Shown piece by piece: positions 2,882-29,409 of a stretch of DNA of 64,000 nucleotides. Each line of letters begins with the position of its first letter. The stretch's first letter is position 1. The stretch lies in assembly GCA_040386815.1 (NCBI GenBank), contig JAZKET010000034.1, positions 61,236 to 125,235 on the forward strand, written 5' to 3'. Source of the DNA: Bacteroidota bacterium. Its GTDB lineage: Bacteria; Bacteroidota; Bacteroidia; Sphingobacteriales; Sphingobacteriaceae. A program made the translations under genes and the position numbers. The notes below the pieces were generated by a model. That model was not told the origin of the DNA. It did no database searches and was given only the letters and a program-made list of their open reading frames with translations.

Positions 2882-2956
2882 ATGTTTTAGGGTGATATAA
2901 AATTTGTAGCAGGTATAAACAAATTGGACTTAGATGTTTTTACATTTGAACTTACA

Positions 2957-11644: not shown

Positions 11645-12250
11645 ATGCGCATAGGCACAAATATTTATAAAATGTTTTTTTTGTGGGGATCTCTGGTCTT
11701 CATAACAACGTCAGCATCGGCACAAAACCGCCTGCAAGAGTTTGACGACCGGATAATGATAGACCTGGCAGAGCATCGCACACCGCAGAAAACCGGGTTC
11801 ATGATGTTCATGTCAGACACTTACCGTTACGGCGATATTGGCATACCTGCGGGCCTGCTTATTGCCGGCGTAGCCACTAACGACCGCAATATGCGCGAGA
11901 ACGCGGGCTATATTGCCAGTAGCACAGCTATATCGTGGGGCCTTACCTTTTTAATAAAACATATTGTAAAACGCCCGCGCCCCTTTGTACAAAATCTAAA
12001 AATTGTCCCGGTTTATAAAGCGGGCAGTACGTCGTTCCCTTCGGGACATACATCAACAACCATCGCCACTGCTACAGCGCTTTCTATGGCCTATCCTAAA
12101 TGGTACGTTATTGCCCCGGCATTTATGTGGGCGGGTACTGTAGGGTATTCGCGTATGTATTTAGGGGTGCATTACCCTACCGATGTTGGCGCGGGTGCTT
12201 TGTTGGGTGCGGGTACTGCGTTGAGTATGTCGTTTATGCGGGTGCGGTAG
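11645..12250 (+). CDS. PAP2 family phosphatase
   Basis: KHIVKRPRP, SFPSGH, SRMYLGVHYPTDV. Confidence 0.93.
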   Translation: MRIGTNIYKMFFLWGSLVFITTSASAQNRLQEFDDRIMIDLAEHRTPQKTGFMMFMSDTYRYGDIGIPAGLLIAGVATNDRNMRENAGYIASSTAISWGLTFLIKHIVKRPRPFVQNLKIVPVYKAGSTSFPSGHTSTTIATATALSMAYPKWYVIAPAFMWAGTVGYSRMYLGVHYPTDVGAGALLGAGTALSMSFMRVR

Positions 12251-12519: not shown

Positions 12520-14883
12520 ATGTTCCCGCAATTCTTCGACAAACCCTTTCGTTTACAACTATCGTTCGATAAAATTATCGAGGGCTTAGAAGATACTGCC
12601 TCAAACGATAGCGGCTGGCGTAGTATGAATGCCCATTCGTTATTAGAGCAGGTTGCCAAACACCCTGAACTACGCGACGGTCTTGTTAATGAAGAGCAGG
12701 TTGCTGTTAACGAAGAACTGATTGCCGAATTACTTGCAGACCTGTTTCCGAAAGCCTTAACGCTAAACGAAATAAAGGCTGTAAGCATTCCTTTTCAAAG
12801 CCTCATTTTTAATCATACCCAACGCTTTAAAAATATTTTGAAAGATGCGGGGTCTGATTTTGAGATCAATATCCGCGATTTTGGCGATCAGCAGTTGTAT
12901 GTAATGAGCTGCTGTATCATCCTTAATGAATTTTATAACACCAGGCTTGATTTTAGCAAGCCCATGTTTTATGATATACCTACGGCTAACGGCGTTATGC
13001 GCCATTACCGCATTTTATATAATGCCGATTTTCTGGAGATTTTAGAGACCGACAATTCGCCTAAGCTAACACAGGCAGATATTGATGAGTTGATGGATAA
13101 CTTTGACGATGTTGAACTGTGGAGGCAAAAAATACCACCGGGCAGCTACCTTATAAAAGGCTTTGGCTTAATGACTTTGGTTGATGTTACTGTTGAGAGC
13201 GCGCTGTCAACCCTTAAAAGTAATTTACTGGCCAACTATTCATCGCCAGAGGTTAAAGAAAGTTTGTTGTCAATTTTTAGGTCGATATATGGTATACCCG
13301 ATATGCGCATGGGCTTTACCTTGTTTGACAAAAACGAAGAGAAGTTTTTAAACGTACGTTTCGGGCCCGATTTTCATAGCTTTTTACTGCCCTACCAAAA
13401 GGCGCACGATACAGAAAAGATCCTGTGCGATAATTCTTTTAATTGCCTGGTGCATGAGCATCATTATTTCGCGGTGTCTGATGTGGCGCGTTATGTTGAG
13501 GAAAACCCTGAAGATAACTTCGGTAAGCATTTCCTTGAACAAGGCATTATGAGTTTCATCCTTGCACCAGTAATTAAGGATGGTGTTTTATTAGGGATAC
13601 TAGAGCTGGTATCGCCACGCATACGCGAGCTGAACAGCGTTACTGCCAACAAGCTGGATATTGTAATGCCGTTTCTGGTAGATACAGTAGACCGCAAGAT
13701 GAATGAAATGCAGAACCGCGTGCGGGCTGTCATTCAAAACTACTACACCACGCTGCACCCCAGCGTTTACTGGAAATTCCGTCGCGAAGCGCAAAATTAT
13801 ATCGAGCATAACAATAACAGTTTGGCTTACACGCTAAAAGAGATCAAATTTAAAGACGTTTATCCGCTTTACGGGCAGGTTGATATCAGCGATTCCTCTC
13901 TCACCCGTAACCTGAGTGTGAGTAATGATCTGGGGAACCACATGGCACGTTTGATCCAATTGTTAAAAGAGATCAATAAGGCCGGCAATAAACCGCACGT
14001 AACGCAAATATTGTTCGACCTTACTACTTTCTCTGACGAGTTAAAGCAGAGCATACGTGCGGATACAGAGCAGTTTATACAGCATTATATTGAGGACAAG
14101 GTGCACCCGGTGCTTACCGCCGCTGCCGTAAACGCTAATTTTAAAATACAGGTAGATAATTACTTTAAACAAGCCGATAGTTTAAAGGGCGATTTCCACG
14201 CTAACCGCCGTAATTACGATAAAACACTGTCGCTGATCAATCAAAAACTGGCTGGTATTCTGGACCATCGCCAGGCCGAGATCCAGGAGTTTTACCCGCA
14301 TTATTATGAACGCTTCAAAACCGATGGGGTTGAGCACAATATGTACATTGGCGAAACTATTGCACCTGATCGGGAATTTACGTTGAAGGATCTGCACCGT
14401 TTACGCTTATGGCAAATGCGGGTAATTGCCGAAATGGAAATTGAGCAGTATGATCTGAAAAGCTTGTTGCCATATTCGTTAGGTGTAACGTCGCTGATAC
14501 TGGTTTTCAGTACGCCGATAGCTATCCGTTTCAGAATGGATGAGAAACATTTTGATGTGGACGGCGCTTACAATATCCGCTACGAAGTAATTAAAAAGCG
14601 GATTGATAAAGCTCATATTAAAGAAAGCACCGAGCGTATTACCAAGCAAGGAAAGATCACCATCATCTACTCAAAAGCCGAAGAAGAAACAGAGTACATG
14701 GGCTATATCAAAATTCTGCAAGACGAAGGCGTACTGGCCGACGATGTAGAACATTTTGAGGTAGAAGAACTACAAGGCGTAGCCGGCCTAAAAGCCTTGC
14801 GGGTTGGCCTTATCCACCATGATCAAAACCTGCTGGCGCACCGTGCCGCAAGCTATGACAAGCTGTACGATAGGATAAGTTAA
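12520..14883 (+). CDS. GAF domain protein with a putative divergent class III nucleotidyl cyclase C-terminal domain
   Basis: GAF-like segment SFILAPVIKDGVLLGILELVS. C-terminal motifs LYGQVDISDSS, RFKTDGV, KHFDVDGAYN, GKITII and ELQGV follow the cyclase order. The cyclase call is inference. Confidence 0.8.
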   Translation: MFPQFFDKPFRLQLSFDKIIEGLEDTASNDSGWRSMNAHSLLEQVAKHPELRDGLVNEEQVAVNEELIAELLADLFPKALTLNEIKAVSIPFQSLIFNHTQRFKNILKDAGSDFEINIRDFGDQQLYVMSCCIILNEFYNTRLDFSKPMFYDIPTANGVMRHYRILYNADFLEILETDNSPKLTQADIDELMDNFDDVELWRQKIPPGSYLIKGFGLMTLVDVTVESALSTLKSNLLANYSSPEVKESLLSIFRSIYGIPDMRMGFTLFDKNEEKFLNVRFGPDFHSFLLPYQKAHDTEKILCDNSFNCLVHEHHYFAVSDVARYVEENPEDNFGKHFLEQGIMSFILAPVIKDGVLLGILELVSPRIRELNSVTANKLDIVMPFLVDTVDRKMNEMQNRVRAVIQNYYTTLHPSVYWKFRREAQNYIEHNNNSLAYTLKEIKFKDVYPLYGQVDISDSSLTRNLSVSNDLGNHMARLIQLLKEINKAGNKPHVTQILFDLTTFSDELKQSIRADTEQFIQHYIEDKVHPVLTAAAVNANFKIQVDNYFKQADSLKGDFHANRRNYDKTLSLINQKLAGILDHRQAEIQEFYPHYYERFKTDGVEHNMYIGETIAPDREFTLKDLHRLRLWQMRVIAEMEIEQYDLKSLLPYSLGVTSLILVFSTPIAIRFRMDEKHFDVDGAYNIRYEVIKKRIDKAHIKESTERITKQGKITIIYSKAEEETEYMGYIKILQDEGVLADDVEHFEVEELQGVAGLKALRVGLIHHDQNLLAHRAASYDKLYDRIS

Positions 14884-14897
14884 ACTCTTTACTTTGT

Positions 14898-14985
14898 TGT
14901 CATTTCGAAACGAGGAACGAGTGAGAAATCTTATCCTCGCGATTTGGCATCCGTATAAGATCTCTCGCTATGCTTCGAAATGACA
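14898..14985. repeat. Palindromic repeat TGTCATTTCGAA...GAGAAATCT...AGATCTCTC...TTCGAAATGACA
   Basis: 12-bp terminal inverted repeat plus inner arms, between convergent genes; may act as a terminator. Confidence 0.75.
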
Positions 14986-14998
14986 TTTTGTTTTAACC

Positions 14999-17536
14999 TC
15001 AAAATCTAAACCCAGCCGTGATATAAGGATACGCGCCCTCTTTTGAGAAACCAACCACACCCTGTATCAATATCAGCTGCGCCGGTAAAAAAAAGACACC
15101 ACCGCCATAACCCATGTGCCAGGTATCAGAGTTTTCGCCCGGCGACCATACACGGCCGACATCATCAAACCCAACCAGCCCAACAGTGCCCGGCAACAGG
15201 TACGACGTAAAATCAAACAGCTTTACTCTTACCTCAAAATTGTTAAAGGCCATGGTTTTTCCGGTGAAGCGCCACTGATAAAAGCCACGTAAATTGTTGT
15301 TACCGCCCAATTTTAATTGCTGATAGTACGACGCGTTACCTACAGTTGTGCCTATACCTGTACGGTTGCCAAACACCAGTTTATAATTATCGCCGGGATC
15401 ATACAGAAAGCTGAAGTCAGACTCTATCTGCCCATAATTATGCGCATCGGGGTTTAGTGATTTCATGGCGCTGAAACTGGTTGTCCATAAAATACCCGAG
15501 TGTTGCACAATGTTCTTATCGCGTGTGTCTAAAGTAAATGCGCCAACTATACCCACATTACCCTGGCCGGCAAACACATTTTCTTTCGGATGAGCAAGGT
15601 CGTAATCTTTCAAAAAACGGGTTTGGTTATCGTCCCTGTCGCCGTTGTAGTATTGGGCAGAGACACCAGCGCTTACCGTCCAGTTGTTATCATAAGTATG
15701 CCGCAAGCGGATATCGGCATTTATCAGGTTATAAACGTTGCGGTAATAACGAATGCGTTTGCCCTCTTCATTTACAAAAACGCTGTTGTTTCCCACACCA
15801 AAAAAGTTGCTTACAAAGTTTGGCCCCCGGTTGGTTATGTTTACTATCAGGTCGTTCTTTTTTACAGCTTGCTTAAACTCGCCCTCGTAATTTAACCACA
15901 ATGAGCTTACGCCAAGGCCATAGTTTGCCGTAAAACTTTGCCTAAACGCATACGGATCTTTCTTAAAACCCTGCTTTTGCCATACCAGTTTGGTGATAAG
16001 CTGTAAGCCGTAGTCTTTATTATAACTACCTAAAAACAGTGGCTGCAAAAAGTCATACTTAAAATTCTTGTTCAAGTATTTATTCACCATCGTATCCGTT
16101 GACAAACGGCGGCGGGCGAAACCGCTTTCAGGCAGGTTGTTCTTCTCATCGCTCCGGTCATAAATGTACCGGTTGCCGCGGCCGGTGATATTGCTGTCAA
16201 CCATAAAGTTGTCCTTATCATCGCCACCCACCATCCTGATCTTTATAGGCGAACTGTTTTTGCCATGCACCGCAAAATAATCTTCATTACCCTGCCCGTA
16301 CAGGCGCACTTCTTCGGTAACTTTAGGGTCGAAAGTGCGCTCGTAAATAACATTGTCGCGCTGGCCCTCTTTGTTTATTTTGGTGATGGTTACCTTAACA
16401 CTGCCATCCTGCTGGTTGGTGATGTCAAAATATTCGTGCTTATCTGTGCCCGGAATATCTACTTTATTTGATATAAAGCGGTAATACCTCATTGCTTGCC
16501 GCTTAAGCACATTACGGCGTGCAATCATTTTGCTGACGATCTCCTGTCCGCTTATTTTATAAATATTAGGCGGCATTAATTTTATCGCCCTGGTAATCAC
16601 CTCATCGGTAAGCTTGGTTTGTACAATATTGATCTGCTCTTCCCAATCTTTTTCATTCAGGCCATTTAAAAAGAAACGGTCGAAATTACGCGCGTTCAAA
16701 TTCCAGCGTCTTACAGAGCGGATATGATCTTCATAACTCTGAAATTTCGACATCAGCAAATGCCTTGACACCAGCCAGGGCATAACGCCTGATGTGCTGT
16801 AATACACCTGGTCCCTATCCCTTGGTATAGGCTCATAAACACTGCCTTTATCGGTTTTTATCTTCTCCCAGCGCCATTGATCCTCGTGGCGGTCCCAGTC
16901 GCCCAGCAGCATATCCAGCAGGCGGGCACGCAGCACCGTTTTCTGATTTACGCTGTTATCGTTATCCTCTTTTAATTTTTCGAAGGCTTTGTCGGTGTTA
17001 TCTGTTTTCTTCGCGTCAAGCGGCTCTCGTTCTTCAAACAAAAACACCTGGTTGGCAAAGTCTTTTCTAAACTCGCCCAGGGCAGGGTCATCGGGTACGA
17101 AAACAATCTCGGGATTAGCGTGCGGCACGTTCAACGCTTTTGCCAGCGGCGGTACGGTAACAGCAGCAAAAGGGTGTTCGGTAACTATCTGATCATCCAA
17201 AATAGAGGCCGCGATGGTTTTTCTCAGCGTTGGTGGCAACACGCGTTCAGGGTATTTCTGGATAGAACGCAGCACCCACTCCTGCCCGGTTTTATCTTCC
17301 AGACGTACAGATTTGGTTTGCATACCGCCGCCACGCTCTGTAGCTTTCAGTCCTCCTTTTTCTTTTGTGATACGAAACACGCGCATTTTAACCGGCGCCG
17401 CCCAAAGCTTGCGGTAACTTTCGCCACTATCATACCTGGGTTCAATAGCCACGGTAATGCTGTCGCCTTTTATCTGCGCAAACGTTTTTGCAGATATGGC
17501 CAAGAGGAAAATCAAAAGCAGGTAACGTTTTCCCAT
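14999..17536 (-). CDS. Omp85 (BamA/TamA-like) outer-membrane protein with an N-terminal atypical-kinase-like domain
   Basis: Signal peptide; GGGMQT, GDWDRHEDQ and PRDRDQ kinase-like motifs; GxGxDxF beta-repeats; barrel with LGGNNNLRGF lid-loop motif and terminal GFRF. Confidence 0.82.
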   Translation of the reverse strand: MGKRYLLLIFLLAISAKTFAQIKGDSITVAIEPRYDSGESYRKLWAAPVKMRVFRITKEKGGLKATERGGGMQTKSVRLEDKTGQEWVLRSIQKYPERVLPPTLRKTIAASILDDQIVTEHPFAAVTVPPLAKALNVPHANPEIVFVPDDPALGEFRKDFANQVFLFEEREPLDAKKTDNTDKAFEKLKEDNDNSVNQKTVLRARLLDMLLGDWDRHEDQWRWEKIKTDKGSVYEPIPRDRDQVYYSTSGVMPWLVSRHLLMSKFQSYEDHIRSVRRWNLNARNFDRFFLNGLNEKDWEEQINIVQTKLTDEVITRAIKLMPPNIYKISGQEIVSKMIARRNVLKRQAMRYYRFISNKVDIPGTDKHEYFDITNQQDGSVKVTITKINKEGQRDNVIYERTFDPKVTEEVRLYGQGNEDYFAVHGKNSSPIKIRMVGGDDKDNFMVDSNITGRGNRYIYDRSDEKNNLPESGFARRRLSTDTMVNKYLNKNFKYDFLQPLFLGSYNKDYGLQLITKLVWQKQGFKKDPYAFRQSFTANYGLGVSSLWLNYEGEFKQAVKKNDLIVNITNRGPNFVSNFFGVGNNSVFVNEEGKRIRYYRNVYNLINADIRLRHTYDNNWTVSAGVSAQYYNGDRDDNQTRFLKDYDLAHPKENVFAGQGNVGIVGAFTLDTRDKNIVQHSGILWTTSFSAMKSLNPDAHNYGQIESDFSFLYDPGDNYKLVFGNRTGIGTTVGNASYYQQLKLGGNNNLRGFYQWRFTGKTMAFNNFEVRVKLFDFTSYLLPGTVGLVGFDDVGRVWSPGENSDTWHMGYGGGVFFLPAQLILIQGVVGFSKEGAYPYITAGFRF

Positions 17537-17541
17537 AGGGG

Positions 17542-18405
17542 CTATTTTTTAAAAGTAAATTTCAACACGTTACCGGGCGTTATCTCATCCCCCTCGTTGC
17601 TGATGTATAAATTATGCTGATTATCAAAAGCCAAACCTTCCGGCTGTAAAAACAGCGCCGGATTAAGCGAATAGACCCCTTTTACTTTAAACGCGGCATC
17701 GGCTATCACCAATAATTTATTGATAGATGCTACAATGAACCACTCACCCGTACCTGGATTTTTTGCAAATGCCGAGGGGCGAAACGCGAATTTCTTTTTG
17801 TTTACCTGTGCTTCAATAGGCTTAGTGTCTATACTAAAGCCACCGGCTGGCGTAACCACGCCGTTAGCTGCCAGTTTAAACTTGTAGCCGGCCGTAGTTC
17901 GGACTTTATCGCCGCCACAATCTTTACACAATATATAAAGCAGGCCGGCTTTTTCATCGCCATACATGCTCTCATACTCGCCTTTGGGTAACAGGTCTTT
18001 TACCTCAACCACATTTGCTGCTGCTTCAGACCATACCTGGTTAAACGGAAAAATATATAGTGTGCCGTTACTCTTAAGCACTACAATCTGGTTGCCCAGT
18101 ATGGTAATATCTTCGTAATCGCCGCTTTTAGCAAAACGGCTGTATTTAGGCGTTTCTTTGCTGCCGGGTTTAAAGTAAAACACTTTCCCTTCTTCATCCT
18201 GTTCGGCAAACAGCATATCCGGCTTGCCATTATGAAATGTAATGCCCGATATCTCGGCCAACGCGTCAGACATATTGTCCTTTACCGGACTATTCAGATC
18301 ATACCCCGGCGGAGTAGGATAGGTCTTTTTTTCAAAACAAGCTATACCAGTTAACATGGCTAATACGATACAAATTATGGCTATAAATCCTTTTAAACCT
18401 TTCAT
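17542..18405 (-). CDS. SdiA-regulated/YjiK-like beta-propeller lipoprotein
   Basis: GIAC lipobox; EISGIT, AEQDEEG, DYEDIT, QPEGLAFD. Confidence 0.8.
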   Translation of the reverse strand: MKGLKGFIAIICIVLAMLTGIACFEKKTYPTPPGYDLNSPVKDNMSDALAEISGITFHNGKPDMLFAEQDEEGKVFYFKPGSKETPKYSRFAKSGDYEDITILGNQIVVLKSNGTLYIFPFNQVWSEAAANVVEVKDLLPKGEYESMYGDEKAGLLYILCKDCGGDKVRTTAGYKFKLAANGVVTPAGGFSIDTKPIEAQVNKKKFAFRPSAFAKNPGTGEWFIVASINKLLVIADAAFKVKGVYSLNPALFLQPEGLAFDNQHNLYISNEGDEITPGNVLKFTFKK

Positions 18406-20420
18406 GCTTTACTTTTCAAATATTGATAAACCCAGCGTTGCGATTGTACAGCAGGCTCAGTTACTTCAACAGGTACATTTTCTATTTTTTCATTAAGCCA
18501 TACGGCTTGTACGTTATCCGTTAGCTGAATGTTAATGATATCCATCACCTCCTGCTTAATCTCCTTATCATACACCGGGAAACACACCTCAACCCTACGA
18601 TATACATTGCGGTTCATCCAGTCTGCCGAACCCATAAAAACCTCGGGCTGCCCGTTATTCTCAAAAACAAACACGCGGCCATGCTCCAGGTATCTATCAA
18701 CAATCCGTTTAATGGTAATGTTTTCGCTCATCGCTTTTGCGCCCGGTATCAGGCGGCAAATGCTGCGCACAATCAACGACACCTTAACCCCTGCATTTGA
18801 TGCATCGTACAGTTTACTGATAAGCTTGCTTTCCTCCAGGTTGTTTAATTTTATGGTGATGGCCGCAGGCAAACCTTTTTGGGCATTGACAATCTCGCGG
18901 TCTATCAGCTCAAAAAAGCGTTGCTGTAAACCAAACTGCGCTACCAGCAAATGCTCAAATTTTATCAGATCTGCCGATTTTGGCTTTTCGCGTTTACGCA
19001 GAAAAATAAACAGCAACTCCACCTCGCGCAGTATGGCCTTGTTGGCTGTCATCAATATATGGTCGGTGTAAAACTCGGCCGTATTCTCATTAAAGTTGCC
19101 GGTTGATAGCAGGCCATAATATTTTATCCGGTCATTCACCCGGCGCTTTACCAGCGCTACCTTGGCATGTACCTTTAGTGCGGTTACGCTATAAATAATC
19201 TCGGCGCCGGCGGCTTTAAGGCGGTTGGCCCATTTAATGTTGTTAGCCTCGTCAAAACGAGCTTTCAACTCTATCAGCACTGTAACCTTTTTACCTGCGG
19301 ATGCGGCGTTTACCAACGCGTTAACAATCCTTGAATCTTTTGCTACGCGATACAGGGTGATATAGATCTCTTCTACCGCCTCATCCAAAGCGGCCGCGTT
19401 AAAGAAACGCAGAATGGTATCGTACGATTGATAAGGCGTATTTATCAGCAGATCTTTGCGTTCTATCTGATCAAAAATGGCTTCGTCGGCGCTTAATCGT
19501 TTATATATCGTCGGCCATTTATCGTACTTCAAATTTGCCTGACTTAGCGGGAAAGCAAACAGATCTTTCAGGTTATGATAATTGCCGCCCTCCACCAGGC
19601 TCGATGGCTCTATCGACCAGCTTTCGCAAACCATCTGCAAAATATTTTCGGGGATACCGGGCTGGTGCAAAAAGCGGGTGGCTATACCCAGATCGCGCTT
19701 TTGCAATTGTTCTTCCACCTGCTCGGCCAGGTCGCCGGGATACTCGTCTTTCAGGTCAAGTTCCGCGTCGCGGGTTATCTTGAAGGCGTAGCAGCCGGTA
19801 ACGGCCTCATCTCTAAATAGCTTATCCAAATTATAACGGATAATATCATCTAAAAACAAGATGTAGGTTTTGTCGCCCTCGTCAACCTTATAAAACCTTG
19901 GCAAATCCGGGGGGATATTTAGCACCAGTACTTTCTCTTCGTCCCCGCCCAGGGTAATTAAAAAATACAGCTCGTTATTTTGGGGGAAGAATTTCTTTTT
20001 GGGCGATAGTTTAAAGGGGCGCAAAAAGGCCATCACCTGGCTAAAAAAATAATCGTTCAGCTGGTCTACCAATTTGGCCGGAGGCGGCTGATTAATTAAC
20101 AGGTGAATGTTACTCTCCTTCAACTGCGCTATCACTTTGGTTATGCCTTTACCAAAATCATGCTGTTGCTGCATAATCAGTTTTTGCGCTACCGAAAGCG
20201 GATCATCAACCACACTGGTGGTAGTGGTTAGTTTGCCCAGCTTATCCATAGCCTGCAGCACGGGCATACGCACCCGGTAAAATTCATCCAGGTTCGACGA
20301 GAATATCGCCATAAAATTTACGCGCTCCAGCAGCGGCACATCACTTTGCAAAGCCGTTTGCAAAATGCGCCCGTTAAAGGTGAGCCAGCTAAGGTCGCGG
20401 TCAAAAAAAGCGTAAGCCAT
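18402..20420 (-). CDS. ppk1: Polyphosphate kinase 1
   Basis: DRDLSWLTFNGRIL, SSNLDEFYRVR, TLYRV, IELKARFDEANN, LKVHAK, TGNFN, DRYLEHGR, SADWMNRN. Confidence 0.97.
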   Translation of the reverse strand: MAYAFFDRDLSWLTFNGRILQTALQSDVPLLERVNFMAIFSSNLDEFYRVRMPVLQAMDKLGKLTTTTSVVDDPLSVAQKLIMQQQHDFGKGITKVIAQLKESNIHLLINQPPPAKLVDQLNDYFFSQVMAFLRPFKLSPKKKFFPQNNELYFLITLGGDEEKVLVLNIPPDLPRFYKVDEGDKTYILFLDDIIRYNLDKLFRDEAVTGCYAFKITRDAELDLKDEYPGDLAEQVEEQLQKRDLGIATRFLHQPGIPENILQMVCESWSIEPSSLVEGGNYHNLKDLFAFPLSQANLKYDKWPTIYKRLSADEAIFDQIERKDLLINTPYQSYDTILRFFNAAALDEAVEEIYITLYRVAKDSRIVNALVNAASAGKKVTVLIELKARFDEANNIKWANRLKAAGAEIIYSVTALKVHAKVALVKRRVNDRIKYYGLLSTGNFNENTAEFYTDHILMTANKAILREVELLFIFLRKREKPKSADLIKFEHLLVAQFGLQQRFFELIDREIVNAQKGLPAAITIKLNNLEESKLISKLYDASNAGVKVSLIVRSICRLIPGAKAMSENITIKRIVDRYLEHGRVFVFENNGQPEVFMGSADWMNRNVYRRVEVCFPVYDKEIKQEVMDIINIQLTDNVQAVWLNEKIENVPVEVTEPAVQSQRWVYQYLKSKA

Positions 20421-20421
20421 G

Positions 20422-21696
20422 TTAGTTAGCTAAAGGCGCGTCGTTATGCAGCGTTGAGGCTATAATATATGCCGCCACAGCAATGATCAACCCAAACATA
20501 AATATGTTATAAGCTACTCTTAAAAAGCGATACTTCCGGCCCAACACCACGCCCTGGCTGTATACGTCCTTTATCAGCGTGCCGTATAAAAAGCCTCGGT
20601 CATCCATCACTTTAAGCATGCCGGCGGTATACTCTTCCAACCCCATTTTATAAAAATTACCAAAGAATAGCAGGTTAACCTTTTTATCGTCAATATCCTG
20701 CGTAGTAAAAGTCCCTTCGGGGATAGCCGGGCGGGTAGCCAGTATCGAAAATATCATAGACAGCAAACTCACCGTCAGCAATATAAAACTCGGTATAGCC
20801 AGGAATGCGTTTTCCTCTAGCTTACGCAACACCAAACTGATAATGGCCGACAGGATAATAGAGTTAACCGTAATTAAAATATGAGCCTTATTATCGGCCA
20901 TATCGCTCAAGCGCTGGTTATTGCCCGATGTTATTCTGAACATGGTTTCAATGCCTTTGTCCGGCTTGTTTTTTTTCTCTTCTTTCTTTTTATCTTTTTT
21001 CTCGTCGGCAATAACTACTACCGGCACAGCTTGCACGGCAGCCTCGGTCTTGCTTTCTGCTTTGGTTTCCTTTGCAGCCTCTGGCTTATCTTCGGCAATG
21101 GTTTCCTGTTGTTTTTTCATTAGTTTGTCCAGGTTTTTTTTCTGCTGATCATGCAGTAACAACTGTGCGTAATCTGTAAAATAGGTATGTGTCTGTAGCA
21201 GCTCAATATTCTTCTGGCGCCAATGGTCCTTATCAATATCCAGGTGTTTTATAATATTAAACTCCTTGCGCAGCAGCTTGCTTTTGTCGGCAAAGTCATC
21301 GGTACCTAAATGGAACAGATCAGCATCGCACATAATTTGCTGCAGCTTACCGGTAGGTTTTTGAGGGATACGGGTGGCAAGAATACAATCATGCACTTTG
21401 GCAATTACCGCTTCATCAACCTTAAGGTGTTGTAAATGCGACACGGCCAGTTCGGCACCGGCAGCTTCGTGGTCGGCTTTGTCAATCAGGTAGCCAATAT
21501 CATGAAACCATGCGGCGGTTACCACCACAAAAAAATCTTCGTTGTTAAGCTGGTAATGGTTGGCAATTTGCGTGGCGGCGTCAACAACGCCTTTGGTATG
21601 TTCCAGATCATGGTACAGCAAATCGGCATCATGATGGCCGTCAAAATACCTTAAAACGTATTGCTTAACATCGCTTAATAATTGCTGATAATTCAT
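20422..21696 (-). CDS. HD-domain phosphohydrolase fused to a Pycsar-effector-like (PycTM/DUF5706) membrane domain
   Basis: HD motifs YHDLEHT, AWFHDIGY and DADLFHLG; charged linker; MADNKAHILITVN, NLLFFGNF and KYRFLRVAY with three TM helices. ATG 21696 is preferred over GTG 21720. Confidence 0.88.
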   Translation of the reverse strand: MNYQQLLSDVKQYVLRYFDGHHDADLLYHDLEHTKGVVDAATQIANHYQLNNEDFFVVVTAAWFHDIGYLIDKADHEAAGAELAVSHLQHLKVDEAVIAKVHDCILATRIPQKPTGKLQQIMCDADLFHLGTDDFADKSKLLRKEFNIIKHLDIDKDHWRQKNIELLQTHTYFTDYAQLLLHDQQKKNLDKLMKKQQETIAEDKPEAAKETKAESKTEAAVQAVPVVVIADEKKDKKKEEKKNKPDKGIETMFRITSGNNQRLSDMADNKAHILITVNSIILSAIISLVLRKLEENAFLAIPSFILLTVSLLSMIFSILATRPAIPEGTFTTQDIDDKKVNLLFFGNFYKMGLEEYTAGMLKVMDDRGFLYGTLIKDVYSQGVVLGRKYRFLRVAYNIFMFGLIIAVAAYIIASTLHNDAPLAN

Positions 21697-21721
21697 AGAA
21701 AAGGTGTTGGTGTTGCTCACC

Positions 21722-21729: not shown

Positions 21730-21841
21730 ATGTTTATATCTGTATTTTGTTTGGTGGATGGGTGTTTTTGTGGGATGAACGTTTAAACATATTTTAAAGA
21801 CGGTTTAAACCAAGCGATGTTACCTAACATATATTTCAGCA

Positions 21842-22019
21842 AGGCTGACCCAGAGGGTCAAAACCTTTGTAGCAAAAAAAGACAAAGCTGTTATGACCCG
21901 GAGGGTCTACCCTTAACGTAAGCATTGATCCCTGTAAAACCTGCACAACGGTAGCCCCGCTGGGGCAAAAAAGAAACTGTAAATTTTTCTACAAAGGTTT
22001 TGACCCTCCGGGTCAGCCT
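21842..22019. repeat. REP/REPIN-like element A (about 36-bp terminal inverted repeats)
   Basis: AGGCTGACCCAGAGGGTCAAAACCTTTGTAGCAAAA versus the reverse complement of TTTTTCTACAAAGGTTTTGACCCTCCGGGTCAGCCT (2 mismatches); internal TGACCCGGAGGGTC copy; GTAG motifs. Confidence 0.85.
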
Positions 22020-22043
22020 ATTATTGCGGTCCGGTATTATAAT

Positions 22044-22265
22044 AGGCGTGTTCGAAACATTTTAAAAGCGACTTTTAAAAGGCGTAGCCTCGACAAATAT
22101 TGTAGCCGCGGTTTTCAACCCGTGGTATACATCATCCATCGAAAGCGAGTGCCATCGGCACGGCCCGCATTATATGGATCGTGCCGATGGCACTCGTTTC
22201 TTGTGTTTGATTTTTTCGCCGGGTTGAAACCCGGCGCTACAATATGAGTCGAGCCGCTGGCTCTT
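22044..22265. repeat. REP-like element B, copy 1 (222 bp)
   Basis: Nested hairpins including GAGTGCCATCGGCACG...CGTGCCGATGGCACTC; near-identical to 22570-22791. Confidence 0.9.
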
Positions 22266-22273
22266 TATTTACG

Positions 22274-22541
22274 GCGGTCCTCGATTACAAATTCAGACCA
22301 CCTTCAGCCACTCTGCTGCTACCAAGCTGCTCCAGAGGAGCAAAATGTCGGTAGAAAAATCCTCTTAAATCTATATTTCGCGCCGTTAGGTGCGAAACTT
22401 AGGCGACCAACGAAACCCCTGATCATAGCGGATAAGTTATGTACCTACGGCACATATAAATTACTTTATATTATTTGCTACCGACATTAAACCCCTACGG
22501 GGTTATCTTCAAATGGCTAAGGGTGTTGATGTTATCGCTTC
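22274..22541. repeat. REP-like element C, copy 1
   Basis: AATGTCGGTAG...CTACCGACATT arms and CCCCTACGGGG; near-identical to 22887-23152. Confidence 0.9.
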
Positions 22542-22569
22542 GTTTTTATGTTAGTCGGGATTTATAATC

Positions 22570-22791
22570 AGGCGTGTCCGAAACATTTTAAAAGCGACTT
22601 TTTAAGAGGCGTAGCTTCGACAAATATTGTAGCCACGGGTTTTAACCCGTGGTATTTGTAATCTATAGAAGATGGAGTGCCATCGGCACGGCCCATTTAA
22701 ATGGATCGTGCCGATGGCACTCTGTTTTGTGTTTAATTTTTTCGCCGGGTTAAAACCCGGCGCTATAATATGTGTCGAGCCGCTGGCTCTT
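22570..22791. repeat. REP-like element B, copy 2
   Basis: Direct repeat of 22044-22265 with scattered substitutions. Confidence 0.9.
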
Positions 22792-22886
22792 ATTTTCAAT
22801 TTGCAAGGTTTCGAACACTCCTGATTTGCAATCCGTGTATCCCAAAGAATAAAATCACGGCCCGGGATTACAAATTCCCACTTACC

Positions 22887-23152
22887 GCGGTCCGCGATTA
22901 CAAATCCGAACCAACTTCATGACTCTGCTGCTACCAAGCTGCTCCAGCGGAGCAAAATGTCGGTAGAAAAATCTCCCACATCTATATCCCGCGCCGTTAG
23001 GTGCGAAACTTAGGCGACTAACGAAACCCTTGATCATAGCGGATAAGTTATGTACCTACGGCACATATAAATTGCTGATATTATTTGCTACCGACATTAA
23101 ACCCCTACGGGGTTACCTTCAAGATGGGTAAGAATGTTAATGTTATTGCTTC
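22887..23152. repeat. REP-like element C, copy 2 (end overlaps the CHAT stop codon)
   Basis: Direct repeat of 22274-22541. Confidence 0.88.
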
Positions 23153-25766
23153 ATTTGTCTACGGATAACAAGCCATCCCCCCAAACCGAACACAATCGCC
23201 GCAATAGCAATTTGCAAAGGCACCCACGAATTTGCCGCCGGCAAATTCACCACCTCATCTGCCCCGGTTAACACCAGCGTATCCCAATAATATGGCAGGT
23301 ACAATGCATCGGCAGACTGCGCATGGTTTAGCCAGTTCAGCTTGGCATTGTGCAGGGCGGCAGCTGTGCTTTGGCTCTTCGTTAAACCCGCGTACATATC
23401 CGCCGTAATGCGCGCCACCGCATCGTCATTAACATTCCATAACCCCGATACCGTGGCCGCGGTACCTATAGCTATAAAACCACGCGACAGGCTGATAATA
23501 CCCTCGCCTTGTGCCAATGTGCCGTCGCCGGTGCGGCAGGCGCTTAGCACTACCAGGTTAGGCTTACGGGAACGCGCCAGCAGTTCAAACAAAAACAGTT
23601 TTTCTTTACCAAAATCAAGCGTAGGTTCATGGTTGGGGCCAGATAGGTAGGCGTGCGTGCTGATGTGCAGGGCAGCCGAATTTTCAAACGACTTAAAAAA
23701 CGAAACAGTATTTACGTCGTCATCATACAAATAATTGCCTTCAACCAATTTCTCAATAGCGGCCGACTCCTGTTTTACGGCCATAATGGGTTTATCGTCG
23801 GCACTGTTATGCGTCATAAACAAACCGCTAAAACTGCCATTGTATTTAATGAGAAAGCGTAACTCACAGTTAACTGCCTGATAAGGTAGGGCCATAGCGA
23901 CGGGGCGGGTTGAAACTTGCTATCGGTTATCAAGCCATCAAAAGACAAATAACCCAAAACATCATCAGGCACAATGCACAGTTTTTCATTTTTCTTTAGG
24001 GCGATATTTGCAAACAGCGTTTTATAAATAGCGTTCGACTGTTGAAAAAACACCTTAGGCGCGTTCACCATTCCAGCCGGACCATTACGATAAAAGGTAT
24101 CTACAAAACCGGTTACCTGCTTGCGGAATTGTTTTGCCCCATCTATGCGGTTAATTGCCCACGCCGACCGGTTTTTAACTTCAATAACATACAAAGCTTC
24201 CGCCCCGAAAAAGAACTCCAATACATGCGCATCAACAGGCAATTTCTTCAATATTTCATCTGCCGATGCTACCGAACCAACGGCCGTTTCACGATATTTT
24301 TTATTGAGCAGGGCCAAATCAAACTTCAAGGCATCTATCTTTTTTTGATATTCGGCCGGGTTGTTTTCCGTCATCATCAAACGCTCATTATAGCTAATGG
24401 CGCGTTCCATATCCAGCTTGCGACGCAGGGCTGCGTCGTTCTTGCCAGCCGCCAGGTTGTGGTAGGTTTTCTGTAGGTCATCTGCCAGCGTACGCGCCTT
24501 GGTTTGTTCGCTCACCGCTAATATCAGGTTTAGATATTTTGGCTGTTTGGTTTGCGCGTAAAGGTTGTAGGCTATTTCAATGGTTTCTTCGGCCAGTTCT
24601 TTTCCCTCTTTTTGCAGGCGTTCCTTGGTTTTATTGTCGGCAAATTCCTTGCGCATTTTATCAGTAGCCAACAGCGCATAGCGCATGTTTTCAAGCGCCA
24701 AAGCAGGCTGCTTTAGCGCCATGTAGGTAAGCGCCTTTTCATGGAAGATGTCAACCAGCTTATTCTCGCCATAAATTTTGTTTGCCGGGGTGATGTTCTG
24801 CACTGTGTTAATGCGCATAATCTGCAACGCGCTGTTTAAACAATTTAGCGCGTTTTGCCATTGCCCCTGTAAACGACATATCTTACCCAGTTGTGTAGTC
24901 AGATAGGCTTTTTCGCGCTGCCTGCCGTCAGCATAATATTTGTTAAGCAATTGCAGCGCTGTTTTAAACTCAGCTTGCGACTTATTTAGCTGGTTGGACT
25001 GCAAATAAATATTACCCAACGTAGTGTGGCTGCCCGTTAAACCATAAGCAGTTTCGCTGTCTATATTTTTTCGTGTAGCGATGTTTTTAATAAGCAGGGC
25101 TTCGGCTTGCTTTAACTCATTTTTTTGGAGCAGTATATCGGCCAGGGTATTATTCAGATTAAACCGTACTTGTGGGTCTTGCACCAGTGCCAGTCCTTTA
25201 GCTACACTTTCCCCGGCGTCATCATATCGCTCAATATTGTAGTATGATATGGCCACGTTGCTGTACAGGGCGGCTACCTTATCGGCCTCGGCAGTTTTGT
25301 TAAGCGCCGCAATGGTGTTTTGCTGTATAAAAATAGCCCGCTCATAATCGCCAAGGCGGGCGTAGTTATTGCCCAGCGGCTTTACTATGTATTCGGCAAA
25401 ATCAAACGCCGCCACGTTATGCTTTTTATAAAACGAATAAGCATCCTCATAACTGTTGATAGATTGCAAAATGTCGCCGGCCTGTAGTTGGTTATAGCCC
25501 TGGGTGGTTAGCAAGGTAAGCCAGGCTATTTGTTCATCGGCAGTCTTGGGTTGTCGCCAGGCTTGTTTGCGGGTGTCTGTTAAAAACGATTGCTGATTGG
25601 GATTAGCATTTGCGTAATCAATGTTGGCGTACAGCCATTCGGTTAAATTGTCCTGTTTTTTTAGCCCATTTAATATAGATTTTTTCGGATTTTTCTGGGC
25701 AAAACTCTGCAAACTGCAAAAGAACAGGCAAAAAAAAAGGCTGATTTTCCTAGGATTGATGAGCAT
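23143..25766 (-). pseudogene. TPR-CHAT (caspase-like) protease split by a frameshift near 23840
   Basis: ORF 25784/25766-23814 has a signal peptide, TPRs and the start of CHAT (IVPDDVLGYLSFDGL). ORF 23895-23143 has the rest, with catalytic LHISTHA and VVLSAC, SLW-like SGLWNV, PYYW and a C-terminal TM helix. The two frames overlap by 82 bp. Confidence 0.8.
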
Positions 25767-25820
25767 TGGCAGGATGTACGGCAATGCTAAAATAGGGAAT
25801 TTTCGCCAGTAAACGCGGGG

Positions 25821-29330: not shown

Positions 29331-29409
29331 GATTTCTGGTTTTTATGTTTTTTATTGCTTACTCTGTTTTGGCTTTTCAGCATCTGCCGTTTTTATCGTT
29401 GTTTGTAGG

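What the first reader, a model, noticed from the sequence alone, without database searches (positions are those of the whole stretch)
12520..21720. Candidate undescribed cyclic-nucleotide system: GAF-cyclase + HD-PycTM + PPK1 + SdiA propeller + kinase-Omp85
Seen: the putative cyclase gene converges on a four-gene operon whose first gene fuses an HD phosphohydrolase to a three-TM DUF5706/PycTM domain. Established: in Pycsar anti-phage systems a class III cyclase (PycC) makes cCMP or cUMP, which activates PycTM membrane effectors, and HD domains include cyclic-nucleotide phosphodiesterases. Inference: the locus would supply a writer (GAF-cyclase), an eraser (HD) and a membrane reader (PycTM), linked to polyphosphate synthesis and to surface proteins. 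It could be a Pycsar-related signalling circuit for phosphate or stress physiology, or a non-canonical defence system.
Basis: partly seen in the sequence, partly recalled or inferred. Interest (0 to 1): 0.88.

Follow-up and report, generated by a model that had tools for sequence, protein, structure and literature searches.

The report
Pycsar-like envelope signalling gene cluster
A gene cluster kept together across several orders of Bacteroidota joins a cyclase-like sensor and a membrane protein related to an anti-phage pore to a polyphosphate kinase and an outer-membrane kinase. It looks like an untested housekeeping cousin of a bacterial immune signalling system.

Summary
HD plus PycTM and PPK1 are clear family matches. 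The "GAF-cyclase" has no cyclase match by sequence, but its model has a GAF domain followed by a complete class III cyclase fold (Z about 11 to Pycsar uridylate cyclase and to adenylyl and guanylyl cyclases). The N-terminal part of the Omp85 protein has a PI4K/CotH/HipA-type kinase fold with invariant catalytic motifs.

The linkage is not chance. Of 62 long loci around HD-PycTM relatives, 55 carry a cyclase-fold gene, 58 the kinase-Omp85, 53 the propeller lipoprotein and 43 PPK1, in several gene orders. In lineages that lack the GAF protein, a canonical PF00211 cyclase sits in the same slot. Natural fusions exist: cyclase-PycTM and HD-PycTM-propeller.

The cluster is single-copy, syntenic within genera, and evolves no faster than its PPK1. 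I read it as a physiological cyclic-nucleotide-type module spanning the envelope, related to Pycsar/Pucsar, not as a classical defence island. No enzyme activity, product, ligand or output has been tested. The second metal-binding Asp of the cyclase is not canonical. I found no paper that describes the cluster.

The parts
11645..12250 (+). PAP2-family membrane phosphatase, 201 aa, immediately upstream of the GAF-cyclase-like gene and co-directional with it. An accessory member of the cluster.
   Evidence: PF01569, 6.6e-23. The PAP2 family is the sixth most frequent neighbour, in 17 of 79 loci. It often lies inside the operon or paired with the GAF gene.
12520..14883 (+). Soluble sensor protein, 787 aa. 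Layout: N-terminal PAS-like region, GAF domain (about 230-400), linker helix, then a class III cyclase-like domain (about 440-770) interrupted by a helical insertion of about 120 residues (about 470-590). The candidate writer.
   Evidence: No Pfam, NCBIfam or PADLOC cyclase match; GAF E 0.03.

AF2 model, pLDDT 75.7. VIA matches: 3k2n GAF Z 12.6; 8jsz uridylate cyclase Z 11.2-11.3 with 214 residues aligned; Cya2, CyaB, AC5, AC9 and sGC Z 10.5-11.3. Best Foldseek hit is a phytochrome-cyclase fusion, 6fht.

The cyclase-like core is the most conserved part: 56% mean pairwise identity against 24-25% for the N-terminus, GAF domain and insertion. Conserved motifs are D455 in 'IDIxxS(S/T)', 'K/R-T-D-G-V-E' and 'GAYNIRYEVIKKRIDK'.
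14999..17536 (-). Outer-membrane protein, 845 aa. Layout: signal peptide, atypical kinase domain (about 22-357), beta-rich linker domain, C-terminal Omp85 barrel. This is the short form, without the metallophosphoesterase domain that the roughly 1200-aa relatives carry.
   Evidence: NF047779 Omp85 over residues 593-845, 2e-23. Model of residues 22-592: pLDDT 88, pTM 0.87. VIA matches: PI4KIIalpha Z 13.6 with 258 aligned, CotH Z 12.9, CtkA Z 11.8, HipA Z 10.4. Foldseek matches to CtkA, HipT and Rio2, E 1e-5 to 1e-4.

Invariant in 43 sequences: G69, K94, D213, D215, D240, R241 and D242. R216 and H217 are present in at least 41 of 43. The long forms carry PF00149 Metallophos.
17542..18405 (-). 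Probable lipoprotein with an SdiA-regulated/NHL-like beta-propeller, 287 aa, periplasmic.
   Evidence: PF06977 at 19.8 bits in the window protein and 23 bits in relative L003. Phytase-like in L060. Profile against PDB: PknD NHL propeller 5.7e-5, YjiK 0.044. A Cys is conserved in the signal peptide. The gene lies beside the kinase-Omp85 gene in most loci. It is fused to the C-terminus of HD-PycTM in P0388.
18402..20420 (-). PPK1 paralogue (polyphosphate kinase 1), 672 aa, dedicated to the cluster.
   Evidence: TIGR03705, 1e-202, above the cut-off. The genome has a second, higher-scoring PPK1 on another contig. Cluster-linked PPK1 is an extra copy in G016, G043 and G049 as well. It follows HD-PycTM directly in almost all of the 52 of 79 loci that have it.
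20422..21720 (-). Inner-membrane protein. Layout: cytoplasmic HD phosphohydrolase domain (about 9-200), Lys/Glu-rich linker, PycTM (pJV1-SpdB3-type 3TM) domain (about 262-430). The probable start is Met9 at 21696. The candidate receiver and eraser.
   Evidence: PF18967 8.6e-35 and PF01966 5.3e-6. PADLOC PycTM models, 154-165 positions long, cover residues 273-422, E 1e-17. H37, H73-D74 and D132 are present; D132 is invariant in 45 of 45 sequences. TM segments at 278-301, 304-333 and 398-426. Closest solved HD domains: 2pq7, YedJ 3gw7, BH2835. More than 7800 relatives; 583 clusters at 50% identity with E below 1e-30.

Best explanation
This is one copy of a conserved Bacteroidota module that couples cyclic-nucleotide-type signalling to the cell envelope. 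Its cyclase-3TM core is related to the Pycsar/Pucsar immune systems, but it is used for physiology.

Shown:
- A cytoplasmic sensor with a GAF domain and a class III cyclase fold.
- An inner-membrane protein with a cytoplasmic HD hydrolase domain and a PycTM-type three-helix membrane domain.
- A periplasmic beta-propeller lipoprotein.
- An Omp85-family outer-membrane protein carrying an atypical kinase domain. In most relatives it also carries a metallophosphoesterase.
- In many lineages, a dedicated PPK1 paralogue and a PAP2 phosphatase.
- These genes are kept together through many rearrangements.

Inferred:
- The GAF domain senses a metabolite, and the cyclase-like domain makes a nucleotide signal, most likely a 3',5'-cNMP.
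- The conserved cytoplasmic face of the 3TM domain receives the signal, as PycTM does.
- The fused HD domain hydrolyses the signal, so the receiver resets itself.
- The state of the 3TM protein passes to the periplasmic propeller and on to the outer-membrane kinase/phosphatase. The propeller is fused to the C-terminus of the 3TM protein in one relative.
- The output concerns phosphate, polyphosphate or envelope phosphorylation, not cell suicide.
For: (1) Folds and families of all parts.

(2) Linkage. Clustering all ORFs from 79 loci around HD-PycTM relatives gives five families in 52-79 loci; the next family is in 17. At least five gene orders keep them adjacent across Sphingobacteriales, Chitinophagales and Cytophagales. 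Of 62 loci of at least 15 kb, 55 have a cyclase-fold gene.

(3) Presence and absence in 60 Bacteroidota genomes: both genes 11, HD-3TM only 6, GAF-cyclase only 1, neither 42.

(4) Substitution. Four of the six genomes with HD-3TM but no GAF protein have a membrane-anchored canonical PF00211 cyclase in the same slot (propeller > kinase-Omp85 > cyclase > < HD-3TM; L116-L119). Other lineages pair a cyclase-TPR protein with a stand-alone 3TM beside the kinase-Omp85 (L120, L121). L122 fuses cyclase and 3TM in one 356-aa protein.

(5) The same HD type occurs beside other cyclases: HD-YitT next to REC-cyclase in L123-L125, a stand-alone HD next to two cyclases in L126, and DUF2652 next to HD-3TM in L143.

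(6) A Rosetta-stone fusion HD-3TM-propeller, P0388. It fits the topology of HD inside and C-terminus outside.

(7) The beta1 motif of the GAF proteins ('IDIRNST') resembles that of the cluster's canonical cyclases ('IDLKNST'). The cyclase-like core is the most conserved part of the protein.

(8) A housekeeping-like pattern. The genes are single-copy. Flanks are shared within Pedobacter and within Chitinophaga. HD-3TM diverges at the same rate as PPK1, for example 62/62%, 54/54% and 46/48% identity. The window's flanks are ordinary metabolic genes.

(9) Cyclase plus pJV1-SpdB3 3TM is an established signalling pair (PMC11224242; bioRxiv 10.64898/2026.08.12.744502).
Against: - The cyclase assignment for the window's protein rests on a predicted fold only. 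Pfam, NCBIfam, PADLOC, a profile against PDB, and hhalign against 31 and against 12 Bacteroidota cyclase domains all gave nothing significant.
- The canonical second metal Asp ('GD') reads 'GV'. Conserved D602 and E605 flank it. The Arg of the Asn...Arg pair is shifted. The domain could therefore be a pseudo-enzyme or make something other than a cNMP.
- The HD domain's nearest solved relatives have no known substrate. About a quarter of family members lack the His of the HD dyad.
- More distant HD-3TM relatives stand without any of these neighbours.
- Co-occurrence counts come from related genomes and overstate independence.
- There is no expression, phenotype or biochemical data.
Confidence: 0.55

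Rival explanations
1. Same parts, opposite direction of signal flow (outside-in). The 3TM domain is a transducer, not a ligand-gated effector. The outer-membrane kinase/phosphatase and the periplasmic propeller report an envelope or phosphate state to the 3TM protein. That state switches the attached HD phosphodiesterase (or, in the fusion, the attached cyclase). The resulting cNMP level is read by soluble receptors such as Crp-type regulators.
For: - Enzyme domains of both kinds, HD and cyclase, are fused to the N-terminus of the 3TM domain. A periplasmic propeller is fused to its C-terminus. This is the layout of a transmembrane receptor.
- A cyclase fused to its own lethal pore would be odd.
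- The genome has eight cNMP-binding ORFs, one of them in the window.
- The cluster's canonical cyclases have their own 3-4 TM anchors.
Against: - In every studied case the PF18967 family is the cNMP-activated effector.
- The cytoplasmic loop and the pre-TM1 segment are the most conserved parts of the 3TM domain, as expected for a ligand site.
- Crp-type ORFs are common in Bacteroidota and are not linked to the cluster.
Confidence: 0.2
2. No cyclic nucleotide is involved. The cluster is a phosphate or polyphosphate machine of the envelope. PPK1, HD, PAP2, the metallophosphoesterase, the phytase-like propeller and the kinase all handle phosphoryl groups. The cyclase-fold protein is a regulatory pseudo-enzyme or a polymerase-palm-like enzyme with another substrate. 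The 3TM domain is merely an anchor or conduit.
For: - Phosphate chemistry is the common theme of six of the seven domains.
- The second metal-binding Asp of the GAF protein is non-canonical.
- There are many invariant basic residues in the cyclase-like core: R672, R687, K692, K693, R694, K697 and R706.
- The PPK1 is a dedicated paralogue.
Against: - PPK1 is missing from the cluster in 27 of 79 loci and from all Flavobacteriia-type clusters, while a cyclase-fold gene is almost always present.
- In the sister clusters the cyclases are canonical, with both metal-binding Asp residues and the Asn...Arg pair intact.
- The 3TM domain is a close relative of ligand-activated PycTM.
Confidence: 0.13
3. 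A non-canonical anti-phage defence system of the Pycsar type. Infection activates the cyclase, and the cNMP opens the PycTM pore and kills or arrests the cell. The HD domain guards against self-activation.
For: - PF18967 and PADLOC PycTM and CBASS 2TM effector models match the 3TM domain.
- The best structural match of the cyclase-like domain includes a Pycsar uridylate cyclase, 8jsz.
- NCBI already names relatives 'Pycsar system effector family protein'.
- Stand-alone relatives of the 3TM domain are common on viral or proviral contigs.
Against: - The cluster is single-copy, syntenic within genera and conserved across at least three orders. It is present in every sampled genome of some genera (g5, 4 of 4).
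- It evolves no faster than PPK1. Immune cyclases are reported to be fast-evolving.
- Its fixed partners are envelope proteins and PPK1, not defence genes.
- P0001 matches no PADLOC model.
- The best 80 viral contigs carry no HD fusion and no cluster gene.
- The window has no defence-island context.
Confidence: 0.1
4. Chance neighbours. The convergent GAF gene is unrelated to the four-gene operon.
For: In this window the gene is on the opposite strand and is separated from HD-PycTM by three genes.
Against: - 56 of 79 loci keep a member of this family within 10 kb, mostly on the same strand inside the operon.
- 11 of the 12 genomes with the family also have HD-3TM.
Confidence: 0.02

Closest known systems
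Pycsar and Pucsar anti-phage systems (class III cyclase PycC/PucC plus PycTM/PucTM, the pJV1-SpdB3-type 3TM effector)
   Same: - A class III cyclase-fold gene is genomically coupled to a PF18967 3TM membrane protein.
- In sister lineages the partner is a canonical PF00211 cyclase that also matches PycC models. It is adjacent to the 3TM or fused to it.
   Different: - The 3TM carries an N-terminal HD hydrolase.
- The window's cyclase-fold protein is GAF-fused and an orphan by sequence. It has a helical insertion of about 120 residues and a non-canonical second metal site.
- The pair is embedded in a conserved cluster with a propeller lipoprotein, a kinase-Omp85, PPK1 and PAP2.
- Inheritance is vertical and core-like, not patchy.
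- No phage phenotype is known.
Physiological GAF-regulated class III cyclases with a phosphodiesterase partner (own knowledge: cyanobacterial CyaB1/CyaB2 type; sGC-like sensor-helix-cyclase layout)
   Same: - Sensor domain, signalling helix, then cyclase domain.
- Best Foldseek hits are a phytochrome-cyclase fusion and soluble guanylate cyclase over the whole length.
- A hydrolase gene is linked to the cyclase.
   Different: - No sequence-level membership in PF00211.
- The hydrolase is a YedJ-type HD domain tethered to a PycTM domain. It is not a class I/II/III PDE or an HD-GYP.
YedJ/BH2835-type HD phosphohydrolases (PDB 3gw7, 2pq7, 3dto)
   Same: Closest solved sequences to the HD domain (E 1e-7 to 1e-6). 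The H...HD...D metal site is intact.
   Different: Those proteins are soluble, stand-alone and of unknown substrate. Here the domain is fused to 3TM (or to YitT) membrane modules and linked to cyclases.
Omp85-family proteins with an N-terminal enzyme (own knowledge: type Vd autotransporters such as PlpD), and the BamA-BamB pairing of an Omp85 protein with a propeller lipoprotein
   Same: C-terminal Omp85 barrel, N-terminal enzymatic domains, and an adjacent beta-propeller lipoprotein gene.
   Different: - The N-terminal domains are a PI4K/CotH/HipA-like kinase with or without a calcineurin-like phosphoesterase.
- Pfam recognises no POTRA domain.
- Whether the domains face the periplasm or the cell surface is unknown.
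Secreted or atypical kinases CotH, Fam20, CtkA and PI4KIIalpha
   Same: Fold match with Z 11.8-13.6 over 220-260 residues. Conserved Gly-rich loop, Lys, 'DRHxDQ/N' catalytic loop and 'DRD' metal loop.
   Different: Fused to an outer-membrane barrel in a compartment with no known ATP supply. The substrate and the phosphoryl donor are unknown.

Membership tests
Pycsar system | A class III cyclase (PycC) recognisable by PF00211 or PycC models | tested here: not met
   P0001 has no Pfam, NCBIfam or PADLOC match. The similarity is at fold level only: 8jsz, Z 11.2-11.3. Canonical cyclases of sister clusters do match PycC models.
Pycsar system | An effector of the PycTM (PF18967, 3TM) or CNBD-TIR type | tested here: met
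   PF18967 8.6e-35. PADLOC PycTM 9.8e-17 over residues 273-422. Here, however, it is fused to an HD domain.
Pycsar system | A compact cyclase-effector operon, patchily distributed and often in defence islands | tested here: not met
   The cyclase-like gene is convergent and three genes away from the effector. The cluster has 5-6 genes, is conserved across orders and is syntenic within genera. The flanks are metabolic genes.
Pycsar system | cCMP or cUMP synthesis on infection, and phage protection | not testable with these tools
   Needs biochemistry and phage assays.
Class III nucleotidyl cyclase (cyclase homology domain) | The fold of the catalytic domain | tested here: met
   180-214 residues aligned to Cya2, CyaB, CyaC, AC5, AC9, sGC, GC-A and AnPycC at rmsd 3.1-4.0, Z 10.5-11.3. 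This covers nearly the whole target domain. It is a predicted model with mean pLDDT 75.7.
Class III nucleotidyl cyclase (cyclase homology domain) | Two metal-binding Asp residues (end of beta1, and the 'GD' of the beta2-beta3 hairpin) | tested here: inconclusive
   D455 is invariant at the end of beta1, in 'IDIxxS(S/T)'. The 'GD' position reads G603-V604, flanked by invariant D602 and near-invariant E605. The correspondence was made by motif and secondary structure, not by superposed coordinates.
Class III nucleotidyl cyclase (cyclase homology domain) | The transition-state Asn...Arg pair ('NxxxR') | tested here: inconclusive
   N685 is conserved. The Arg lies at +2 (R687), not +4. K692, K693 and R694 are invariant nearby.
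Class III nucleotidyl cyclase (cyclase homology domain) | Significant sequence or profile similarity to PF00211 | tested here: not met
   Pfam gave no match. hhalign probability is below 1% against two cyclase alignments. The profile against PDB found no cyclase.
HD superfamily phosphohydrolase | The H...HD...D metal-binding residues | tested here: met
   H37, H73-D74 and D132 are present in the window protein. Across the family: D132 45/45, H37 44/45, D74 38/45, H73 33/45. PF01966 5.3e-6.
Cyclic-nucleotide phosphodiesterase | Hydrolysis of a cNMP | not testable with these tools
   The only evidence is genomic linkage of this HD type to cyclases. The nearest solved relatives have no known substrate.
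Polyphosphate kinase 1 | Full-length match to the equivalog model above its cut-off, with all four PPK1 domains | tested here: met
   TIGR03705 at 674.9 bits, cut-off 465.85. PF13089, PF02503, PF17941 and PF13090 are all present.
Omp85 superfamily | A C-terminal 16-strand barrel domain; POTRA domains before it | tested here: inconclusive
   NF047779 at 83 bits, below its 200-bit cut-off, over residues 593-845. PF01103 is above its cut-off in relatives. A profile hits a POTRA-domain protein's barrel, 9ccg, 1e-12. No POTRA match was found. The beta-rich region 337-470 of the model has not been assigned.
PI3/4-kinase, CotH and HipA-like atypical kinases | Kinase fold with a Gly-rich loop, a Lys, a catalytic-loop Asp and a metal-binding Asp | tested here: met
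   Z 13.6 (4hnd), 12.9 (5jda) and 11.8 (3akj). G69-G71, K94, D215-R216-H217 and D240-R241-D242 are invariant or nearly so in 43 sequences. Activity is untested.
SdiA-regulated (PF06977) beta-propeller | A Pfam match above the gathering score | tested here: inconclusive
   The window protein scores 19.8 bits, below 21. Relative L003 scores 23.0 bits. The fusion P0388 carries it weakly. The profile hits the PknD NHL propeller and YjiK. No model was made.

The most novel reading that the evidence does not exclude
The cluster is a trans-envelope phosphorylation machine. A metabolite-sensing cyclase opens a non-lethal PycTM-type channel. The HD domain on that channel times its closure. The dedicated PPK1, made from the gene directly downstream of the channel gene, supplies polyphosphate (or NTP regenerated from it) through the channel. 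This feeds the kinase and phosphatase domains mounted on the Omp85 protein and its propeller partner. Bacteroidota would thereby phosphorylate envelope or surface substrates in a compartment that has no ATP of its own. It would be a bacterial counterpart of the coupling of polyP synthesis to membrane translocation in the yeast VTC complex. It would also be the physiological ancestor from which Pycsar-type suicide pores were recruited.
Probability: 0.1. Interest if true: 0.92.

Novelty: new variant of a known kind. Interest (0 to 1): 0.8.

Why it matters
- PycTM-type membrane proteins and their cyclases are known only as abortive-infection immunity. Here the same pair appears in a conserved, vertically inherited cluster with fixed envelope partners. 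This would give a physiological context, and perhaps the evolutionary source, for that immune module.
- It would assign a role to a family of more than 7800 HD-PycTM proteins now auto-named 'Pycsar system effector'.
- It would do the same for a roughly 790-aa 'GAF domain-containing' family, also seen in Cyanobacteriota and Thermodesulfobacteriota, whose cyclase fold sequence methods do not detect.
- It shows an atypical kinase fused to an Omp85 barrel. That raises the open question of what donates phosphate outside the cytoplasm.
- It ties a dedicated PPK1 paralogue to second-messenger signalling in a phylum where cNMP signalling is barely studied.
- All of this can be tested in tractable Pedobacter, Chitinophaga or Dyadobacter strains.

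Tried and rejected
- Sequence-level proof that P0001 is a cyclase gave nothing significant: Pfam to E 10, NCBIfam, PADLOC, a profile against PDB, and hhalign with and without the helical insertion, against 31 general and 12 cluster-linked cyclase domains.
- Pfam PF27174, labelled 'YeeD' in Atlas output, maps to the C-terminal region of relatives. It is not in the Pfam copy I could scan.
- Complex prediction of the propeller with the N-terminal part of the Omp85 protein gave no verdict, score 0.00.
- No RNA holder is listed for the window. Only watershed-metagenome DNA runs hold it, so I did not lay reads.
- More distant HD-PycTM relatives (33-34% identity) were looked up. Three stand without cluster genes, one sits beside DUF2652, and one is the propeller fusion.
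- Viral contigs hold only stand-alone 3TM relatives. My own HMMs found no HD, cyclase, PPK1, propeller or kinase next to them. My cyclase HMM could miss divergent PycC.
- Literature searches found no description of the cluster. Terms tried: PycTM with HD; DUF5706; PF18967; spdB3; Omp85 with metallophosphoesterase; Pycsar with polyphosphate; CotH with Omp85.
- Tal et al. 2021 and Burroughs et al. 2015 are not held. An earlier mention of an HD-3TM association there cannot be excluded.
- The consensus scan gave no more promoter-like sites than shuffled sequence (21 found, 22.3 expected). Terminator-like sites were only slightly above it (17 found, 12.9 expected). Neither informed on operon boundaries.
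- I considered and dropped the idea that PF18967 is only a passive pore domain. Canonical PycTM proteins are about 160 aa and consist of little else, so the family must also hold the ligand site.

Full report
**The locus.** The window comes from a Mucilaginibacter-like member of the Sphingobacteriaceae, assembled from a watershed metagenome. A 787-aa gene on the plus strand (12520-14883) converges across 115 nt on four minus-strand genes packed with 5, -4 and 1 nt between them: 14999-17536, 17542-18405, 18402-20420 and 20422-21720. A PAP2 phosphatase gene (11645-12250) precedes the 787-aa gene on the same strand.

**The four operon genes.**
- The first gene has an HD domain and a PycTM domain: PF01966 at 5e-6 and PF18967 at 8.6e-35. 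PADLOC PycTM models and CBASS '2TM' effector models, each only 154-184 positions long, cover residues 250-429. The H...HD...D residues are intact. There are three hydrophobic segments, with a conserved 65-residue loop between the second and third. With the HD domain inside the cell, the C-terminus lies outside. The true start is probably Met9. The nearest solved HD domains are uncharacterised YedJ-type hydrolases.
- The second gene is PPK1, by the equivalog model. It is an extra paralogue, because a higher-scoring PPK1 lies on another contig.
- The third gene is a probable lipoprotein with a borderline SdiA-regulated/NHL propeller signature.
- The fourth gene has a signal peptide and a C-terminal Omp85 barrel. 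A model of residues 22-592 has pLDDT 88. Its first 335 residues match PI4KIIalpha (Z 13.6), CotH (12.9), CtkA (11.8), actin-fragmin kinase and HipA. The Gly-rich loop, K94, the 'DRHxDQ/N' loop and a 'DRD' loop are invariant or nearly so in 43 relatives. So 'kinase-Omp85' is right.
- Most relatives of the fourth gene are about 1200 aa and add an N-terminal calcineurin-like phosphoesterase. In some loci that domain is a separate gene.

**The 'GAF-cyclase'.** By sequence it is not a cyclase. Pfam, NCBIfam and PADLOC found nothing beyond a weak GAF match, and neither did a family profile searched against PDB sequences. Databases call it 'GAF domain-containing' or hypothetical.

An AlphaFold2 model (pLDDT 75.7) tells a different story.
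- Residues 147-403 are a GAF domain (Z 12.6).
- Residues 411-785 align over 180-214 residues with nearly the whole catalytic domain of class III cyclases. These include the Pycsar uridylate cyclase of Anabaena (8jsz), Cya2, CyaB, CyaC, AC5, AC9, soluble guanylate cyclase and GC-A, at Z 10.5-11.3.
- The best whole-length Foldseek hits are sensor-helix-cyclase proteins.
- The domain is interrupted after its first helix by a helical insertion of about 120 residues.
- Across 35 diverse members, the cyclase-like core is by far the most conserved part, at 56% mean identity against 24-25% elsewhere.
- The first metal Asp is invariant, in 'IDIRNST'. This resembles the 'IDLKNST' of canonical cyclases found in sister clusters.
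- The 'GD' of the second metal site reads 'GV', between conserved D602 and E605. The Asn of the Asn...Arg pair is kept and the Arg is shifted.
- hhalign stays insignificant.

I therefore call it cyclase-like by fold, with catalysis unproven.

**Is the neighbourhood real?** I took 80 genome loci around HD-PycTM relatives of 40-62% identity, from Sphingobacteriales, Chitinophagales and Cytophagales. I then clustered all of their ORFs.
- Five families stand out: HD-PycTM in 79 loci, kinase-Omp85 in 69, propeller in 65, GAF-cyclase-like in 57 and PPK1 in 52. The next family, PAP2, is in 17.
- The usual order is HD-PycTM > PPK1 > propeller > kinase-Omp85 > GAF protein, all on one strand. Divergent, convergent and permuted versions also occur.
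- Of 62 loci of at least 15 kb, 55 have a cyclase-fold gene.
- Flanking genes differ between genera and are shared within Pedobacter and within Chitinophaga.
- HD-PycTM diverges in step with PPK1.
- In the window's own genome, the HD-PycTM, GAF protein and kinase-Omp85 genes are single-copy.

**Presence and absence.** In 60 Bacteroidota genomes sampled across the phylum, 17 have full-length HD-PycTM and 12 have the GAF protein. Eleven have both, one has the GAF protein only, and 42 have neither. Kinship inflates any P value.

**Substitution and fusions.** I think this is the strongest evidence.
- Four of the six genomes with HD-PycTM but no GAF protein carry a canonical class III cyclase in the same slot. 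It has PF00211 with 3-4 N-terminal TM helices. The order is propeller > kinase-Omp85 > cyclase > < HD-PycTM (L116-L119).
- Another lineage has kinase-Omp85, a cyclase-TPR protein and a stand-alone PycTM (L120, L121).
- One genome fuses cyclase and PycTM in a 356-aa protein (L122).
- Two loci hold both kinds of cyclase, or PPK1 with a canonical cyclase (L127, L128; also L073, L075 and L076).
- The same HD type is also fused to a YitT membrane domain next to a REC-cyclase (L123-L125).
- It stands alone next to two cyclases in L126.
- As HD-PycTM it sits beside a DUF2652 protein. From my own knowledge, DUF2652 belongs to the nucleotide-cyclase clan.
- A 651-aa metagenomic protein fuses HD, PycTM and the propeller, in that order. 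This places the propeller on the periplasmic side and argues for physical coupling.
- With about 2.6 cyclase genes per genome of about 3.4 Mb, a given 20-kb window should contain one about 1.5% of the time.

**Known systems.** Pycsar pairs a class III cyclase with PycTM or a CNBD-TIR effector (PMC11224242; PMC13069673). A 2026 preprint names PycTM the pJV1-SpdB3 3TM family. It describes five cyclase subclades, adds the cGMP-making Pucsar systems, and reports that immune cyclases evolve fast. None of the papers found mentions an HD fusion, PPK1, or the propeller and kinase-Omp85 partners. Two founding papers could not be read.

**Interpretation.** The cyclase-3TM core is the Pycsar kind of pair. 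The distribution, synteny, evolutionary rate and fixed envelope partners are those of a physiological module.

I commit to an inside-out model. The GAF sensor drives synthesis of a nucleotide signal. The conserved cytoplasmic face of the 3TM domain receives it, and the fused HD domain removes it. The change is relayed to the propeller and the outer-membrane kinase/phosphatase. PPK1 and PAP2 tie the output to phosphate chemistry.

Only the parts and their linkage are shown. Every activity is inferred. The rivals are:
- an outside-in receptor reading;
- a purely phosphate-handling machine with a pseudo-cyclase;
- a defence system.

They are weighed in their own sections. The complex prediction gave no verdict, and no RNA data exist for this organism.

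**Verdict.** This is a new variant of the cyclase-plus-3TM kind of system, and it is worth experiments.

Noticed in passing
window 21800-23130: The gene-free stretch upstream of the HD-PycTM gene holds two repeat units of about 530-610 bp, 85-100% alike in their pieces. They are built from many short GC-rich hairpins and look REP- or MITE-like.
   Followed up: partly
window 23143-25784 (-): A 656-aa TPR ORF and a 250-aa CHAT-domain ORF overlap by about 80 nt on the same strand. They look like a single TPR-CHAT gene split by a frameshift or an assembly error.
   Followed up: no
window 29356-29390 (-): A DUF805b RNA motif (RF02914) scores above its gathering score. It is the only Rfam hit in the window.
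   Followed up: no
window 2924-3535 (+): A Crp-type cNMP-binding protein is encoded about 9 kb from the cluster. The genome has eight PF00027 ORFs and one canonical PF00211 cyclase on another contig, so cNMP signalling exists here independently of the cluster.
   Followed up: partly
window 32000-56000: G+C falls from about 0.45 to about 0.38. The stretch is a PUL-like cluster with two SusC/SusD pairs, DUF5007/DUF5008, fasciclin and DUF5122 propeller genes.
   Followed up: partly
G000 contig C113:20479-22482 (L132): A second PPK1, presumably the housekeeping one, scores higher against TIGR03705 (762 against 675 bits). In other genomes too, the cluster-linked PPK1 is the extra copy with the lower score.
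   Followed up: partly
L123:4153-5610, L124:1813-3273, L125:4133-5593: The same HD type is fused to a YitT 5TM domain plus DUF2179 (485-486 aa). It sits directly beside a response-regulator-cyclase gene. This is a second, separate HD-membrane-domain plus cyclase pairing.
   Followed up: partly
L122:5245-6315 (+); P0388: Two natural fusions: cyclase-PycTM (356 aa) and HD-PycTM-SdiA-like propeller (651 aa).
   Followed up: yes
L130:4586-7594 (-): One genome (G036) encodes a GAF-cyclase-like protein with an N-terminal extension of about 200 residues. It lies in an open frame of 1383 aa, and my ORF call is 1002 aa. It has a clear Pfam GAF match (1e-9) and lies about 50 kb from a stand-alone PycTM.
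   Followed up: no
L149-L228 (IMG/VR contigs): Stand-alone PycTM-like ORFs at 28-40% identity to the 3TM part are frequent on viral or proviral contigs: 156 confirmed matches. The best 80 show no HD fusion and no cluster gene.
   Followed up: partly
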